Shown here: one piece after another, positions 3,291-18,954 of the stretch
How the letters are laid out: each line of letters opens with the position of its first letter
How positions within the stretch are numbered: the stretch's first letter is position 1
NCBI GenBank assembly: GCA_030613025.1
Contig: JAUWMT010000003.1
Coordinates: 14,752-78,751, forward strand
Origin: Candidatus Cloacimonadota bacterium
Lineage (GTDB): Bacteria; Cloacimonadota; Cloacimonadia; JGIOTU-2
DNA: 64,000 nucleotides
Reading direction: 5' to 3'
Program-made: the position numbers and the translations under genes
Notes under the pieces: generated by a model
Told to the model about the DNA's origin: nothing
Database searches by the model: none
Seen by the model: only the letters and a program-made list of their open reading frames with translations

Positions 3291-4043
3291 CTATATCCTG
3301 AACATCACTCCAAACACGATATGATGAAAGAGTGCGTAGTTATACACTGCATCTTTATCTGCGCCGCCTTCGAGGAATCTGTAGCCAAGTTTCACACTTA
3401 CTTTATCAGAAATACAACCAGTCCATGCAAAAAGGATATCCTCTGCTCTTCCATGAGGAGTTGCAATCGCATCACCTTCAATACGAAAATTCATACAGGG
3501 AGTGAATTTCCATACAAAAAGGAAGTTGATGAGCGGCATAAATCCGACATTGCTTTTTGAAGATTCAACTACTGTGCCAAAATTATCCTGACCCTTAATG
3601 CTGATCTTGGCATCTCTGATCATACCGGTCAATCCAATTCCGATCTGGAAGTGTTTGGAATTAATAAAATCCCACCTGTAGGAAAGCCGCCAGGAATTGA
3701 ATTTATATATCGCTTTTACCTCATGAATGCTGGAATAACTTTGTCCCGCAAAATTAAAATTCTGTTTTGGTTTCCCCTTATAGGTTTTCGTAAAGGGAGC
3801 TAAAAGCACAGATATGGTATGTCGTTCCGCAAAAGTATAGTTGAATTTCACTCTAAAAAACAGGGAAGCATTAGATCCAATATCTTTTTGTAAAGAAAAC
3901 GGACTTCCAGTGTTGCCCGGCACTCTTACATCATTATATCCGCTCAAGTTTAGTCCGGTTTCCAGGTCTGCTATGAATTGCGCATGAATTATTGGAACGC
4001 ATAAAAAAAGAATTAATAAACAAATTACGATTAATTTTCTCAT
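3291..4043 (-). CDS. Putative outer-membrane beta-barrel protein
   Basis: Signal peptide MRKLIVICLL..IHA; alternating beta-strand pattern; GYRFLEGGAD; C-terminal GVMFRI. Confidence 0.6.
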   Translation of the reverse strand: MRKLIVICLLILFLCVPIIHAQFIADLETGLNLSGYNDVRVPGNTGSPFSLQKDIGSNASLFFRVKFNYTFAERHTISVLLAPFTKTYKGKPKQNFNFAGQSYSSIHEVKAIYKFNSWRLSYRWDFINSKHFQIGIGLTGMIRDAKISIKGQDNFGTVVESSKSNVGFMPLINFLFVWKFTPCMNFRIEGDAIATPHGRAEDILFAWTGCISDKVSVKLGYRFLEGGADKDAVYNYALFHHIVFGVMFRI

Positions 4044-14587: not shown

Positions 14588-16078
14588 ATGAAATTCAAAA
14601 GATCCTGTGGTGTTTTACTGCATCCCACTTCTCTGCCCGGCAGATTCGGCATTGGAGATCTTGGTCCGGAAGCATATAGATTTATTGATTTCCTGGTAAA
14701 ATCGGAACAAAAAATCTGGCAGATACTTCCGCTAAATTATCCCGGCTATGGAAATTCACCATACAATCCGATCTCTGCTTTTGCAGGTAATCCTTATTTG
14801 ATCAGCCCGGAAAAACTAGTTGAGCAAGGATATCTTGACCCAGAAGAGATCGAAGATCATCCCGAGTTTGATGCTCATAAAGTTGATTTTCACAAAATTA
14901 TTGAATACAAAGATTTATTATTTAAGAGAGCTTTTCAGAATTTTCAAGATCACACCCCACATAAAATTTTATCTGATTTCGATATTTTCTGCTATGAAAA
15001 TACTTCTTGGCTCGATGATTTCAGCTTATTCGCTGCACTTCGTGAGAAAAATGATTTTCGTTCGTGGAATACATGGGAAAAAGATGTGCGGATGAGAAAA
15101 GAAAAAGCACTCATTCTTTCCAGAAATAAACTCGCAGAGCAGATACGTTACCATAAATTCGTACAATACCTTTTCTACACTCAATGGCAGGAACTTCTGA
15201 ATTATGCTCACAAGAAGAATGTTCAGATAGTTGGTGACATTCCGATATTTGTTGCTTATGACAGCGCCGATGTATGGGTGCATCAAAACCTTTTTTATCT
15301 TGATGAAAATGGAAATCCGACTGTCATTTCCGGAGTACCTCCTGACGAATTTTCCAAAGAGGGGCAACTCTGGGGAAATCCGCTCTATGATTGGGATGTG
15401 ATGAAACAGAATGACTATCTCTGGTGGCAGGAACGCATTTCTCATTTACTGAATTTTGTTGATTATATCCGTATTGATCATTTTATAGGATTCATCCGGT
15501 ATTGGATGGTGAAACCCGGTTCAAAAACTGCCCAAAAAGGTAAATGGGGCAAAGGACCAGATGCTCATTTCTTTTCTACGATAAAGAGCCATCTGGGAGA
15601 ACTTCCCATTATTGCAGAAGATCTCGGAATTATCATTCCCCGCGTGAATGAGCTTCGTGATGAGTTTGGCTTTCCGGGCATGAAGATCCTGCAATATTCT
15701 TTTGCTGAGCAAGATCAGCGTCCTCATGAGTTTGAGCAGAATTCAATTACTTATCCCGGTACTCATGATAATGATACTATGAAAACCTGGTTTGTGAATT
15801 TGAAAAAGTATGAACCCGAGATATATAAAACCTTAACTGAATATATTAATTATAATGAAGAAGAGTCCTTTTGCCAGCAGATGATCGAGTGTGCCTATTC
15901 AACTCCTTCCAATTGGACGATCATTCAATTGCAGGATATTCTCTGCCTTGGTGCTGAAGCACGGATGAACCGACCCGGTACAGTTGAAGATAATTGGGTC
16001 TGGCACTTTACTGATGAAATGATCACGAATGAAATAATTGAGAAGCTTCGGGAATTGGTTGAGAAGTATAAGAGATAA
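14588..16078 (+). CDS. malQ: 4-alpha-glucanotransferase (GH77)
   Basis: LHPTSLPG, WQILPL, GVPPD..GQLWGNPLY, RIDHF, AEDLG, GTHDNDT, RMN.PG. Confidence 0.97.
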   Translation: MKFKRSCGVLLHPTSLPGRFGIGDLGPEAYRFIDFLVKSEQKIWQILPLNYPGYGNSPYNPISAFAGNPYLISPEKLVEQGYLDPEEIEDHPEFDAHKVDFHKIIEYKDLLFKRAFQNFQDHTPHKILSDFDIFCYENTSWLDDFSLFAALREKNDFRSWNTWEKDVRMRKEKALILSRNKLAEQIRYHKFVQYLFYTQWQELLNYAHKKNVQIVGDIPIFVAYDSADVWVHQNLFYLDENGNPTVISGVPPDEFSKEGQLWGNPLYDWDVMKQNDYLWWQERISHLLNFVDYIRIDHFIGFIRYWMVKPGSKTAQKGKWGKGPDAHFFSTIKSHLGELPIIAEDLGIIIPRVNELRDEFGFPGMKILQYSFAEQDQRPHEFEQNSITYPGTHDNDTMKTWFVNLKKYEPEIYKTLTEYINYNEEESFCQQMIECAYSTPSNWTIIQLQDILCLGAEARMNRPGTVEDNWVWHFTDEMITNEIIEKLRELVEKYKR

Positions 16079-16087
16079 AAACTTACC

Positions 16088-16180
16088 TTGTCATTTTTGA
16101 GGAGCGGAGCGAAGAATCTCGTTAAAGGATAAACTATTCTATCGGGAGATTCTTCGCTCCACTTCGTTACTCTCAGAATG
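16088..16180. repeat. REP-like palindromic element, interrupted at its right end by the IS110
   Basis: Perfect 15-bp arms 16106-16120 / 16146-16160; outer arms TTGTCATT... / CTCAGAATG|ACAA, with the final ACAA found after the IS at 17389. Confidence 0.75.
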
Positions 16181-16200
16181 TACTGTGTTTCAAAGTCAAC

Positions 16201-17163
16201 TTATTTTGCATATTGAGGGTTCCATTCTCTATCATATTTTACAATAGCAAAGATATGACGTAGTAATTTATGTGCGACTGCAACAAGTGCAACTTTCTTT
16301 AATTTACCTGATGCCAATAATCGGTCATAATATTCTCGATATACCGGGTTATATTTCTTTGCACTCAACGCACTCATGTAAAGAGTCTTACGTATCAAAG
16401 CATGTCCCTTCTTACTTATGTTGGAACCTCTTTTTACACTCGTTCCAGATTGTCTTGGGTTGGGATTTAGTCCCGCAAAGGAAACCGCCTGCTTTGCTGT
16501 CTCAAATTGCTCAAAATTACCATAAAAAGCCATAATCATTGATGCCGTCATCTTGCCGACCCCCTTGATAGAGGTCAGCTTCGATGACTGATCTGGAAAA
16601 TGAGTATCGAGATAATCATAAAGAATCTTCTTAAGCTTGTCTATCTCACACTCTATCTTCTAAACCATCGACCGATAAGTCTTTCCAACTTCCTTCGATA
16701 CCGGATACCCATGAGTATACGATTCAAGCCGATTACTGAACGCGGTGTGGGTTTTATGTAAATCTTCGATAGCTTTTGATAACTGGAACAATACCATACG
16801 ATCATCTGAGTGGGGGGCAAATTCTTCGGGATTTTGTTCATAACCATATTCGGCTATTAGTCTTGCATCAATACTGTCCGTCTTCGCTCTTAACATCTTC
16901 ATCTCGCCATAACGCTTGATGATCAAAGGATTTATTACTGATACAAAGTAGCCCCAATCATGAGCTTCCAAGGCAATCCTTAAATGATAGATACCAGTAG
17001 CTTCCATCACTATCTGAAGATCGTCTGATGAATATTTCTTAAGAAATTTCACAAAAGCTTTCTTGTTGTTAGCGATGGTAATATTATCATGCTTCTCTCC
17101 ATTATAAAGAGAAATATCAAGTGTCTCTTTTGACACGTCTATTCCGGCTGTTAGCTTTTTCAT
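16201..17163 (-). pseudogene. IS110 DEDD recombinase with a single in-frame TAG at 16660-16662
   Basis: GIDVSK, MEATG, KTDSIDA; after the stop the same frame continues KIECEIDKLKK..LTSIKGVGKMTA..GLNP..QSG..ISKKG..VAVAHKL. Confidence 0.9.
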
Positions 17164-17169
17164 CTAAAC

Positions 17170-17370
17170 TCCTTTACAAGATTGTAAGGAATAAGTAATC
17201 TATCATTGTGCATTATGCAGGTTATAAACCTAATGTACTGTTCAGATTCGTGGAAGGTGGGCTTAACATTCCCTGCGGTCTGTAAGACCAATGACAATAT
17301 AAGCTTGCTCACCTTCCCCTATTCCTTTCAATTATGCTTTTCATGACTATTCTTCTATTTATAAATAATT
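17170..17370 (-). ncRNA. Predicted IS110 bridge RNA (target-binding and donor-binding loops); ends approximate
   Basis: Two stem-internal-loop-hairpin units (17252-17317, 17198-17247) whose loop sequences match the flanking target and the element ends. Confidence 0.75.
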
Positions 17371-17460
17371 TGTAGTCAATATACAATGACAATATTGTTT
17401 TACCTTTAAACACCATTAATTTCCTTCTCCTCCCAGTAGAGGGCTGGGGTGAGGTAAAAT

Positions 17461-17489
17461 AAAAAAAGGGGCTGAATATATTCAGCCCC
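17461..17489 (-). terminator. Intrinsic terminator
   Basis: GGGGCTGAAT/ATTCAGCCCC hairpin with a T7 tract on the minus strand. Confidence 0.7.
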
Positions 17490-17529
17490 GATATGAGCGT
17501 CCCCAACGAGGGCGTTGGGAACGAGAAGT

Positions 17530-17558
17530 AAAAACCGTCAGGAATTTCTCCCTGACGG
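17530..17558 (-). terminator. Intrinsic terminator at the end of the glucan locus
   Basis: CCGTCAGG/CCTGACGG hairpin plus T-tract on the minus strand. Confidence 0.7.
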
Positions 17559-17613
17559 CTCTTGAATATTTAACTTTGCGAAAGTGAAAAACTTTCGCAA
17601 AGGTTTATTAAAT

Positions 17614-18954
17614 CTATCTCATCAAAATAACTTGCTTCGTTGCGTAATACTGTCCATTTACCTGTACAGAATACAGGTAAATACCGTTGGATAATGTTTT
17701 GCCATGCTCATCTTTACCATTCCATTGCATAGAAACAGGAACATCAGCATTAACATGGAGTGAACTAAAAGATTTAACCAGCGCACCCTTTACATCATAA
17801 ATCGCAACATCGACCATTGCTGTTTGAGTAAGCATGAACTCGATCTTCGTTGTCTCATTAAAGGGATTTGGTGAAGCAATTAGATCATACACACGAGGAG
17901 GAGTAACGTTTGGATTTGGATCATTGGTTTCGGGAATGGTTATCATTGCAACTTTATCAAAGTGATGTATTGTACCACTGTAATCTACGCTCTCAAGCCA
18001 GTAATAATAAACATCATCAACCTGCGGATTAGCGATTACATCTTCATAAATATAGGACTGCATTTGTGTAGTTGTACCGTGACCTTCTATCATGCCGGAT
18101 ACTCTTGTTGCAGAAGTGAAATCCTCTGCCTGATTACGGTATACGAACCAGCCCATATTATCTGTCTCGGATTGAGTGGTCCAGTAGAGTAAAGGTTTTC
18201 CTGCAAGGTATTGAGCAGTGAAGGTTGAGAGCTCAACGGGGAGGGTGACACCACTATCGGGAATACCATCGCTGTTAGAATCAATAGTGATTGACCATAA
18301 GTTAGTAAGATGATCAGGCCCGCCATCTCCATCAGTATCAGCATTATCTGGTGCTGAGTCACAAGCTCCGTAATTATCGCCACCAGCAATAACACCAACA
18401 ATTTTCAGTGACGCCCCTGAAGGAACAGTCCCTGCCCCTAATCCATAAATACTATTCCATGGAATTGCAACCTCAGCAGATGTCGTTCCGCTAATTGTAC
18501 AGCTACCACTTATAGCATCATCTGAAGTATTATCAGTAATAGTCCAAACACCTGGAGTTCCGCTATCCCAACTTGCGATCATAAGATCAATAGCATCATC
18601 CTAATTGAAGATTATATTTCTAGGATATGCACCTGTATATCCATTATTACTATTAAAATCAGTTTCACCACCAACAATACTCATATCCAAATAAACAATC
18701 ATTGCATTGCCTGATGCAGTATATTCTATGCCCACATATAAATTATCAGCATCCCAAGTTAACCACAGATTATTCATTTCGCTTGATGCACCCCATGCAG
18801 AATCATCATTGGGATCATCTACAATTAATTCATCCGAATCCCAATCACCTGCTGCTATGTTAATAGAACCATCAATAGTAGGTGTGTTATATGTTACACC
18901 AAAAAGCAATGATGTACAAAACACAAACACTGTAATTAATATTATTTTTTTCAT
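17614..18954 (-). pseudogene. Secreted CTD protein with DOMON/CBM9-like domain; single in-frame TAG at 18601-18603
   Basis: ORFs 18601-18954 and 17614-18582 share a frame (..IIFN*DDAIDLMIASWD); signal peptide; TLPVELSTFTA motif; CTD. Confidence 0.8.

What the first reader, a model, noticed from the sequence alone, without database searches (positions are those of the whole stretch)
16177..17395. IS110 bridge RNA decodable in place: guide loops match this element's own target and donor
Seen, on the minus strand: (1) Target loop, closed by stem GGAAGGTGAGC/GCCCACCTTCC with inner hairpin GGTCT-TAC-AGACC. Its left guide ATATTGTCATT (17290-17300) is identical to the flank at 17385-17395. Its right guide GGGAATG is complementary to CATTC(T) of the other flank (16175-16180). 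(2) Donor loop, closed by ATCT/AGAT with inner hairpin AGGTT-TAT-AACCT. Its left guide ACAGTACATT (17232-17241) is identical to the element end at 16177-16186. Its right guide ACAATG is complementary to CATTGT at the other end (17383-17388). Established: IS621-type IS110 elements use bispecific bridge RNAs with this LTG/RTG/LDG/RDG layout. Inference: this is a new bridge-recombinase orthologue with its core inside CATT, target ATATTGTCATTC and donor ACAGTACATTGT.
Basis: partly seen in the sequence, partly recalled or inferred. Interest (0 to 1): 0.85.

Follow-up and report, generated by a model that had tools for sequence, protein, structure and literature searches.

The report
Dead IS110 element with readable bridge RNA
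This is an ordinary member of the IS110 family of jumping genes, carrying a guide ("bridge") RNA that spells out both its own ends and its insertion site; this copy's enzyme gene is broken, so it mainly adds one more example to a known system.

Summary
On the minus strand lies a 1,208-bp IS110-family element (17385..16178). It has a DEDD/Ser recombinase gene broken by one in-frame TAG. A ~180-nt 5' RNA has two internal loops that repeat the left flank and the element's 3' end, and are complementary to the right flank and the 5' end.

Relatives support the bridge-RNA reading:
- A covariance model finds the RNA just upstream of the gene in 38 other loci.
- 28 of 33 base pairs show compensatory changes.
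- Guide loops track their own flanks better than other loci's flanks, 0 of 10,000 permutations at both junctions.

Refinements:
- The core is the dinucleotide AT inside CATT.
- The last G of each "right guide" is probably a handshake position.
- This copy's right target guide matches its site only at core+2, although it fits the genome's main REP-like hairpin family.
- The family inserts at the foot of such hairpins.
- A covarying closing helix brackets both loops, unlike the IS621 RNA as described in the text I read.

Verdict: new member of a known kind (Durrant 2024). It is a single, dead copy. Interest is moderate to low.

The parts
17388..17395 (-). Left target half-site (LT, positions 0-7): ATATTGTC. 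It is identical to the 5' part of the left target guide.
   Evidence: The flank/guide match covaries in L004 and L005 and across the family.
17386..17387 (-). Left copy of the core dinucleotide AT
   Evidence: Comparative junction analysis.
16178..17385 (-). The insertion sequence itself, 1,208 bp counting one core copy. It runs from RD (TGTATATTGAC...) to LD + core (...ACAGTAC-AT).
   Evidence: Homology with L004/L005 breaks at these ends apart from target-like flank similarity. The ends match LDG/RDG.
17378..17383 (-). -10-like hexamer TATATT in the left end. With TTGACT of the right end it would form a promoter only in the circular RE-LE junction.
   Evidence: A hexamer pair scoring 9/12 or more spans the junction in 18 of 28 elements. 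Consensus match only.
17344..17378 (-). 5' stem-loop of the RNA (GACUA...UAGUC)
   Evidence: RNAfold MFE and centroid. IS621-type RNAs have a 5' stem-loop (PMC11208160).
17164..17340 (-). Bridge RNA body as matched by covariance model R1 (223.5 bits)
17320..17327 (-). 5' strand of the closing helix P0 (AAGGAAUA). It pairs with 17193-17186 (UAUUCCUU) and encloses both binding loops.
   Evidence: All 8 pairs show changes on both sides and 90.7% of cells are paired (helix 1).
17252..17317 (-). Target-binding loop module: stem 17317-17307/17262-17252 and inner hairpin 17289-17277
   Evidence: helices 2-4.
17290..17300 (-). Left target guide AUAUUGUCAUU (LT + core AU + position 10)
   Evidence: 11 of 11 identical to the flank 17395-17385. 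Covaries in relatives.
17268..17276 (-). Right target guide region GCAGGGAAU. AU is the core complement and A pairs with position 10. G17267 and U17266, just 3' of it, are handshake-like positions.
   Evidence: Family RTGs match right flanks up to position 16. Handshake analogy from PMC11208158.
17197..17248 (-). Donor-binding loop module: stem AAUCU/AGAUU and inner hairpin 17231-17219
   Evidence: helices 5-6.
17232..17241 (-). Left donor guide ACAGUACAUU
   Evidence: Identical to the element's 3' end 16186-16177. LDG variants track right-end variants in relatives.
17203..17209 (-). Right donor guide ACAAU, followed by G and A (handshake-like positions)
   Evidence: Complementary to CATTGT at 17388-17383. 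The RDG base opposite position 10 agrees with the left end in 28 of 28 elements.
16201..17163 (-). IS110-family recombinase gene, 320 codons plus a TAA stop. It has a DEDD RuvC-like domain and a Tnp domain. A likely ribosome-binding site AAAGGAG lies at 17175-17169.
   Evidence: Pfam PF01548 6.3e-25 and PF02371 1.5e-24. IS621 8wt6 E 4.9e-41. D9, E54, D96, D99 and S239 are invariant.
16660..16662 (-). In-frame TAG at codon 168 (nonsense mutation)
   Evidence: relatives have N, Q, K, S or T there. TAG ends 223 of 1198 long open frames in the genome. Laid relatives read A at the first codon base.
16194..16199 (-). -35-like hexamer TTGACT in the right end
16180..16186 (-). Left donor half-site (LD) ACAGTAC at the element's right end, followed by the core AT at 16179-16178
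16084..16177 (-). Right target half-site (T CTGAGAG...) and the REP-like palindromic repeat it belongs to. Arms are GAGCGAAGAATCTC 16159-16146 and GAGATTCTTCGCTC 16120-16107. The second, inverted unit ends at TGACAA 16093-16088.
   Evidence: DNA fold -18 kcal/mol, z = -4.47. Repeat family in the genome. An uninterrupted paralogue lies at G000:C74.

Best explanation
This is an IS110-group insertion sequence of the IS621 type, in a bacterium whose closest relatives carry Cloacimonetes record titles.

Inferred mechanism, by homology with IS621:
- When an active copy excises as a circle, the joined right and left ends form a promoter (TTGACT-N18-TATATT).
- That promoter drives a ~200-nt bridge RNA from the left end.
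- The target-binding loop reads a site (A)TATTGTC-AT-T.... The left guide pairs with the bottom strand. The right guide pairs with the top strand.
- The donor-binding loop reads the circle junction ACAGTAC-AT-TGTAT in the same way.
- The DEDD/Ser recombinase exchanges strands at the shared AT core. This leaves one AT at each junction.

What the sequence and comparisons show:
- The preferred sites of the family are the 5' foot of short REP-like palindromes that begin GTCAT.
- This copy can no longer make its recombinase, because codon 168 is TAG. It is the only copy in the genome, so it is an immobile relic whose RNA still records its donor and target code.
- Its left guide fits its site perfectly. 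Its right guide fits only core+2, so it sits in a partly matching site of a sister repeat family.

Shown here: the anatomy, the homology, and the covariation of structure and guides. Inferred: transcription, the circle, and catalysis.
For: Anatomy at the exact coordinates.

Protein:
- PF01548 and PF02371.
- Full-length homology to the solved IS621 (E 4.9e-41) and ISCro4 (1.7e-40) recombinases.
- D9, E54, D96, D99 and S239 are invariant in 8 of 8 aligned sequences. They align with the IS621 catalytic motifs.

RNA:
- Fold z = -4.11.
- Model R1 hits directly 5' of the gene in 29 of 85 sources and 10 of 86.
- 9 of 151 genomes of the phylum have a match, including G000 itself.
- On 29 sequences, 90.1% of cells are paired and 28 of 33 pairs show double-sided changes. 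Shuffles reach this 0 of 500 times, and slid controls reach at most 48.8% paired.

Target guides:
- The window, L004 and L005 sit at three different loci.
- LTG and left flank agree in each: ATATTGTCATT / ATATTGTCATT, ATTTTGTCATT / ATTTTGTCATT, CATGTCATT / CATGTCATT.
- The L004 RTG matches its right flank over CATTCTGAAC.
- Family-wide left junctions: 24 distinct, 10 nt compared, own 5.83 against foreign 3.68 matches.
- Family-wide right junctions: 27 distinct, 7 nt compared, own 4.78 against foreign 2.67 matches.
- Permutations reach these values 0 of 10,000 times at each junction.

Donor guides:
- The element's own LD 9-mer is found exactly downstream of the gene in 23 of 31 loci. A foreign 9-mer is found in 19 of 720 comparisons.
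- RDG agrees with position 10 of the left end in 28 of 28.

Core = AT:
- Position 10 follows RDG at the left junction and RTG at the right junction.
- Position 7 stays with LT/LD in L096.

Other:
- Junction promoter 10/12.
- Layout rules are taken from PMC11208160 and PMC11208158.
Against: - No experiment and no direct evidence of transcription or circles. The four laid runs are contigs, show no RE-LE joint, and RNA-library contigs cannot prove transcription.
- The recombinase gene carries a stop.
- Only one copy is present in a 98-contig draft genome, so no within-genome insertion-site series exists.
- This copy's RTG matches its right flank at only 2 positions beyond the core plus a G.T.
- The permutation tests do not correct for relatedness of elements and of the repeat families they sit in.
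- Alignment A7 was fitted to the model, which favours the modelled structure.
- Some relatives fit their flanks poorly: L096 and L088 on the right, L084, L006 and L172 on the left.
- 8 of 31 loci lack an exact LD 9-mer.
- Rfam has no matching family.
- The integrated state shows no excess of promoter-like sites: 5 found against 4.9 expected.
Confidence: 0.9

Rival explanations
1. The copy is not dead. On this view the TAG is an assembly or sequencing variant, or a minority allele, and the element is intact and mobile in the population the genome was assembled from.
For: A single base separates TAG from the sense codons of relatives, and the two halves remain in frame. Contigs of relatives in four other runs read a sense codon there (place 16662). 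The genome is a draft of 98 contigs.
Against: The assembled sequence reads TAG. TAG is an ordinary stop in this genome, ending 223 of 1198 long frames.
Confidence: 0.1
2. The structured 5' region is only a leader that regulates the transposase. On this view the repeats of flank and end sequences inside it are protein-binding subterminal repeats or chance, not nucleic-acid guides.
For: The RNA lies directly upstream of the ribosome-binding site and no terminator separates it from the gene. PMC11208160 cites earlier work that thought small RNAs modulate recombinase expression in the IS110 member ISPpu9.
Against: The target guides match DNA outside the element and change with it between independent insertions. 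A protein-binding repeat inside the element cannot explain this. One guide of each loop is identical to the DNA and the other is complementary, as in IS621. The chance of both repeats arising together was 0 of 2000.
Confidence: 0.03
3. The weak RTG-RT fit arose after insertion rather than from a partly matched insertion. The copy would have been inserted by an RNA with an L004-like right guide (reverse complement CATTCTGAAC). It would later have acquired the GGG version, by mutation or by recombination with a sister element.
For: The L004-type RTG would match the window's right flank at CATTCTGA, 8 contiguous bases. Relatives laid from X2 and the RNA libraries sit in similar flanks and differ from the window exactly at 17272, 17273 and 17275, inside the RTG. 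L005 shares the window's RTG but sits in a CATTCC site.
Against: This needs three or more changes confined to the guide. IS621 naturally uses only a 4-nt RTG and tolerates rG:dT. Insertions at sites matching only part of the bridge RNA are reported for IS621 (abstract of 10.64898/2026.08.31.748434). So insertion with core+2 pairing is plausible without later change.
Confidence: 0.3

Closest known systems
IS621 (E. coli) bridge recombinase and bridge RNA (Durrant et al. 2024, PMC11208160; Hiraizumi et al. 2024, PMC11208158)
   Same: - Two-domain DEDD/Ser recombinase, alignable over residues 6-311.
- RNA in the left end, with a 5' stem-loop followed by a target loop and a donor loop, each with an inner hairpin.
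- LTG/LDG are identical to the top strand and RTG/RDG are complementary to it. All include a shared core dinucleotide.
- The target loop is variable and the donor loop conserved.
- The promoter is split across the RE-LE junction.
- It inserts into palindromic extragenic repeats (reference 11 of the paper).
- The bases 3' of the core complement can pair with position 6 of the non-cognate DNA: U with donor A6, and A with target T6.
   Different: - The proteins are only distantly related (144.6 bits).
- The core is AT, not CT.
- Family RTGs reach about 7 nt beyond the core, whereas IS621 has 2.
- Position 7 is C in both target and donor, so the first handshake base pairs with both. In IS621, cognate handshake pairing blocks exchange.
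- An 8-bp covarying helix closes around both loops. The IS621 RNA as described ends with the donor loop at nt 177.
- This copy has a broken gene.
ISCro4 / IS622-type orthologues used for genome engineering (10.1101/2025.05.14.653916, search listing and abstract only; PDB 9t56)
   Same: Full-length homology of the recombinase, E 1.7e-40. Same family of bridge systems.
   Different: Nothing is known about the activity of the present family. I did not read this paper's text.
ISPpu10 of Pseudomonas putida (10.64898/2026.03.19.712850, abstract read)
   Same: An IS110 element whose natural targets are copies of a conserved intergenic sequence with a stem-loop. Here 13 of 27 right flanks carry an exact inverted copy of positions 8-12 within 10-50 nt, against 1212 of 20000 random positions.
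   Different: In ISPpu10 the stem-loop is a GC-rich 5' extension of the target. Here the hairpin starts at the core and runs 3' of it, so the RTG reads one of its arms.

Membership tests
IS110 family, IS110 group (IS621-type bridge recombinase system) | N-terminal RuvC-like DEDD domain with the four acidic catalytic residues | tested here: met
   PF01548 at 6.3e-25. D9, E54, D96 and D99 are invariant in 8 of 8 sequences. They align with the IS621 motifs GID, EATG and KTDxVDA.
IS110 family, IS110 group (IS621-type bridge recombinase system) | C-terminal Tnp domain with the catalytic serine | tested here: met
   PF02371 at 1.5e-24. S239 in RQSGTS is invariant and aligns with ESGSS of IS621 (S241).
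IS110 family, IS110 group (IS621-type bridge recombinase system) | Intact recombinase reading frame | tested here: not met
   In-frame TAG at codon 168. TAG is a normal stop in this genome. This bears on the activity of this copy, not on which family it belongs to.
IS110 family, IS110 group (IS621-type bridge recombinase system) | Structured non-coding RNA in the long left end: a 5' stem-loop, then two stem-loops with internal loops | tested here: met
   The left end is 222 nt and the right end 23 nt after the stop codon. Fold. Covariance-model hits. 28 of 33 pairs are compensatory.
IS110 family, IS110 group (IS621-type bridge recombinase system) | The first internal loop pairs with both strands of the target (LTG bottom strand, RTG top strand), core included, and covaries with insertion sites | tested here: met
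   Permutations 0 of 10,000 at both junctions. For this copy the RTG pairing is short (core + 2 + G.T).
IS110 family, IS110 group (IS621-type bridge recombinase system) | The second internal loop pairs with both strands of the donor (the joined element ends) | tested here: met
   LD 9-mer found in 23 of 31 own loci against 19 of 720 foreign comparisons. RDG agrees with left-end position 10 in 28 of 28 and with all three bases in 22 of 28.
IS110 family, IS110 group (IS621-type bridge recombinase system) | A core dinucleotide shared by target and donor and present once at each junction, with no longer target duplication | tested here: met
   CATT is at both junctions. It was narrowed to AT by relatives in which positions 7 and 10 differ between target and donor. 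One exception: L175 and L176 read GT on the left and AT on the right.
IS110 family, IS110 group (IS621-type bridge recombinase system) | Promoter for the RNA reconstituted across the RE-LE junction of the circular form | tested here: inconclusive
   TTGACT-N18-TATATT scores 10/12 across the computed junction. 18 of 28 elements score 9/12 or more (no shuffle control). No transcription data show a start site.
IS110 family, IS110 group (IS621-type bridge recombinase system) | Circular intermediate and RNA-guided recombination activity | not testable with these tools
   No joints appear in four laid runs, all contigs. This needs bench work.
IS1111 group of the IS110 family | Bridge RNA in the long right end, and subterminal inverted repeats of 7-17 bp | tested here: not met
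   The RNA is in the left end and the right end is only 23 nt. Only a 3-bp ACA...TGT inverted pair flanks the donor. Criteria are from PMC11208160.

The most novel reading that the evidence does not exclude
The element would represent a distinct architectural branch of bridge RNAs, in three respects.
1. A strongly covarying 8-bp helix ties the target and donor loops of one molecule into a three-way junction. In the IS621 synaptic complex the two loops come from two separate RNA molecules.
2. The core is AT and the right target guide is long.
3. The family has co-diversified, across several phyla, with a superfamily of GTCAT-N3...N3'-ATC hairpin repeats. The guide reads the variable stem triplet of these repeats, so each repeat subfamily has its own matching IS lineage.

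In addition, the mixed-core junctions of L175 and L176 (GT left, AT right) would be natural footprints of top-strand-only inheritance.
Probability: 0.35. Interest if true: 0.55.

Novelty: new member of a known kind. Interest (0 to 1): 0.33.

Why it matters
- It confirms that a bridge RNA can be decoded from a single genomic copy by eye. It also shows that comparison with a few dozen relatives can fix the core dinucleotide and guide lengths without experiments.
- For tool builders, the family offers an AT core, naturally long right target guides and a closing helix. All three could be tried in intact orthologues.
- For genome biology, it adds a case, outside the Proteobacteria, of IS110 elements living on REP-like hairpin repeats. 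The guide sequence tracks the repeat subfamily.
- None of this changes the established picture of IS110 biology.

Tried and rejected
- Rfam 15 at E up to 10 over 15900-17700 gave only weak, unrelated matches, the best being His_leader at 28.8 bits in the left flank. No bridge-RNA family matched.
- A search of the own genome for further copies, by DNA and by PF01548, found none. A within-genome insertion-site series was therefore impossible.
- My first exact-suffix search for junctions missed many left junctions, because position 10 differs there. I replaced it with a junction definition based on the conserved left-end motif.
- The 8-nt inverted-arm test on right flanks gave 8 of 27 against 305 of 5000 random positions. 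It misses the short 5-bp arms, so I repeated it with 5-nt arms.
- Promoter scan of the integrated state: 5 sites against 4.9 expected, no signal.
- Read laying returned contigs only. There were no joints, no starts or ends, and nothing covered 17416-17480 in the RNA runs. None of this bears on transcription or circles.
- RNA-run shares of 0.14-0.18 were treated as relatives, not as the same element.
- I considered TAG recoding and rejected it.
- I considered that L004/L005 might be orthologous loci to the window and rejected it. Similarity ends within about 30 nt of the element.
- Rows left out of counts: L164, L165 and L173 (same bit scores as L005, the window and L004, so treated as the same copies). 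Also identical guide/flank pairs (27 to 24 left junctions, 31 to 27 right junctions), loci with a truncated flank, and the seven rows with E above 0.01 or on the opposite strand.
- Supplementary data of Durrant et al. list predicted orthologues and could already contain this family. I could not see them.
- One literature search for IS110 together with Cloacimon* found one unrelated paper. I make no wider claim that the family is not in print.
Full report
**What is there.**
- The only omission is that the 11-bp target stem has one A.C mismatch.
- An open frame of 320 codons runs from 17163 to 16201. One in-frame TAG interrupts it at 16662-16660.
- Read through with X, the protein carries the two Pfam domains of IS110 transposases: PF01548 at 6.3e-25 and PF02371 at 1.5e-24.
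- Its close homologue P0001 (96% identical) aligns over residues 6-311 with the solved IS621 recombinase (E 4.9e-41) and with ISCro4 (E 1.7e-40).
- In an alignment with seven relatives of 96-56% identity, D9, E54, D96, D99 and S239 are invariant. Codon 168 is N, Q, K, S or T.
- TAG ends 223 of 1198 long open frames in the genome, so the TAG is a nonsense mutation, not recoding.
- The genome (2.83 Mb, 98 contigs, 98.45% complete) holds no second copy, by DNA or by the Pfam model.

**Is it more than chance?**
- Shuffles of the 221-nt non-coding part reach an 11-mer shared with the left flank in 7 of 2000 trials.
- They reach a 10-mer shared with the element's end in 24 of 2000, and both together in 0 of 2000.
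- The RNA folds at -56.3 kcal/mol with z = -4.11. The fold has a 5' hairpin, both stems and both inner hairpins.

**Relatives.**
- A protein search found 1286 homologues. They include full-length 320-residue proteins at 96, 90 and 81% identity.
- Locus searches returned 80 genome loci and 80 metagenome loci.
- The two nearest, L004 and L005, are 92 and 90% identical in DNA. Their record titles read Cloacimonetes bacterium SCGC AAA252-N17. They lie at loci unrelated to the window's.
- The model matched directly upstream of the recombinase gene in 29 of 85 sources at E up to 0.01.
- It also matched in 10 of 86 further sources. All ten came from a scan of 151 genomes of the phylum, in which 9 genomes, G000 included, have a match.
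- On 29 aligned sequences, 90.1% of cells pair and 28 of 33 pairs show changes on both sides.
- No shuffle of 500 reaches this, and sliding the partners drops pairing to 48.8% or less. The caveat is that the alignment was fitted to the model.

**Do the guides covary with the DNA?**
- In the three close copies, the left target guide and the left flank change together (ATATTGTCATT, ATTTTGTCATT, CATGTCATT).
- The right target guide of L004 matches its right flank over CATTCTGAAC.
- For the wider family I defined junctions independently of the target guides. The left junction is set by the conserved left-end motif. The right junction is set by the match to the left donor guide.
- Left junctions: own guides match own flanks at 5.83 of 10 positions against 3.68 for foreign pairs (24 distinct junctions).
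- Right junctions: own guides match at 4.78 of 7 positions against 2.67 (27 distinct junctions).
- Permutations reach these values 0 of 10,000 times at each junction. Relatedness of elements and of their target repeats inflates such tests, so the figure is not a probability.
- Donor side: variants of the left donor guide (ATAGTAC, ACGGTAC, ACAGCAC, ACAGTTC and others) recur at the element's right end.
- The own 9-mer is found exactly in 23 of 31 loci, against 19 of 720 foreign comparisons.
- The right donor guide predicts the first base of the left end in 28 of 28 elements, and all three bases in 22 of 28.
- Poor fits exist and are listed under evidence against.

**Refinements.**
- Core. The base after CAT follows the right donor guide at the left junction (T or C). 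It follows the right target guide at the right junction (T, C or G), matching in 25 of 27 junctions. In L096 the base before the dinucleotide differs between target (T) and donor (C) and stays with each. The core is therefore AT. The target is (A)TATTGTC-AT-TCTGAG and the donor is ACAGTAC-AT-TGTATATTG.
- Handshake positions. The G ending both 'right guides' pairs with C7. The next bases are U in the target loop and A in the donor loop. They can pair with donor A6 and target T6. This is the non-cognate handshake logic described for IS621 (PMC11208158, passages). In the family this holds only partly: G with C6 in L166 and L171, A with T6 in L096 and L103, and several misfits.
- Promoter. The computed RE-LE junction gives TTGACT-N18-TATATT, 10 of 12. 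18 of 28 elements score 9 or more. IS621 behaves this way (PMC11208160, passages).
- Closing helix. An 8-bp helix (17327-17320 with 17193-17186) encloses both loops, and all 8 pairs covary. In the text I read, the IS621 RNA ends with the donor loop at nt 177, and its two loops in one complex come from different molecules. This appears to be a difference. I could not see the figures or the supplements.

**The target.**
- The right flank is part of a palindromic repeat (DNA fold z = -4.47).
- The genome holds two related hairpin families that start TGTCATT.
- The first reads TTGTCATTCTGA...GAAGAATCTC. By my reading of the listed sequences, 13 of the 16 GTCATTCTGA sites belong to it. One is an uninterrupted close paralogue of the split repeat, on contig C74.
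- The second is larger and reads TGTCATTCCCGAG...CGGGAATCCAG. There, 96 of 1142 TGTCAT[TC] sites have an inverted 8-nt arm, against 605 of 20000 random positions.
- The window's right target guide (reverse complement CATTCCC) fits the second family, but the copy sits in the first.
- A perfect 14-nt predicted site, ATATTGTCATTCCC, exists unoccupied on contig C68.
- Across the family, 13 of 27 right flanks carry an exact inverted copy of positions 8-12 within 10-50 nt, against 1212 of 20000 random positions.
- IS621 itself uses a 4-nt right guide and tolerates rG:dT. Insertions at sites that match only part of the bridge RNA are reported for it (abstract). So the short match here does not argue against guidance.

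**Expression.**
- Related copies, mostly 90-95% alike, occur in contigs of three RNA libraries and one DNA run. They cover 16147-17415.
- There are no joints, and contigs cannot show transcription.
- At 16662 these relatives read the base that gives a sense codon.

**Comparison and verdict.**
- The element meets the sequence-level defining features of the IS110 group with an IS621-type bridge RNA. It fails only on gene integrity.
- It does not fit the IS1111 group.
- Durrant et al. 2024 predicted bridge RNAs in 85.7% of IS110-group elements and read guide-target pairs the same way. This is therefore a new member of a known kind.
- The neighbours are ordinary: a GH77 4-alpha-glucanotransferase and a protein with a type IX secretion sorting domain.
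- Interest is moderate to low. The closing helix, the AT core with long right guides, and the pairing of guide lineages with hairpin-repeat subfamilies are the parts worth a specialist's look.

Noticed in passing
L175 and L176 (two copies in genome G025): The left junction reads ...ACCC-GT-TGTAT and the right junction reads ...GTAC-AT-GG.... The left target guide has CGUU, while the right target guide and both donor guides have the AT form. The two junctions of one element therefore carry different 'cores'. This would be expected if only the top-strand products were inherited, or if a target core of GT recombined with a donor core of AT.
   Followed up: partly
G000 contig C68, + strand near 3522 (outside the window): ATATTGTCATTCCC is an exact 14-nt match to the target predicted from this element's own left and right target guides, and it is unoccupied. 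From base composition I estimate about 0.04 such sites by chance. This is my arithmetic, not a call.
   Followed up: no
G000 genome-wide, e.g. contigs C26, C43, C81; window 16084-16177: A large family of short palindromic intergenic repeats reads TGTCATTCCCGAG...CGGGAATCCAG(T)ATT, and a smaller sister family reads TTGTCATTCTGA...GAAGAATCTC. They are often preceded by A-rich sequence. Similar GTCAT-hairpin repeats flank related IS copies in other phyla (Fidelibacterota, Acidobacteriota and Campylobacterota record titles).
   Followed up: partly
window 17468-17489 (minus strand): A terminator-like hairpin GGGGCTGAATATATTCAGCCCC followed by a T-run lies downstream of the type IX secretion sorting-domain gene (17614-18582). 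It is about 70 nt upstream of the insertion point.
   Followed up: no
window 17387-17392 (minus strand): The conserved target half-site itself contains TTGTCA, a -35-like hexamer. The scan pairs it with AATTAT at a 16-nt spacing (9/12). The target might therefore supply promoter activity to an integrated copy. The region as a whole shows no excess of promoter-like sites.
   Followed up: no
L166 and L174 (genome G025, about 4 kb apart on one contig): Two copies have identical RNA and identical flanks on both sides. This suggests a local segmental duplication that includes the element, rather than two insertions.
   Followed up: no
window 17272-17275: Relatives laid from four runs differ from the window at three bases that all fall inside the right target guide. 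The rest of the RNA differs little.
   Followed up: partly
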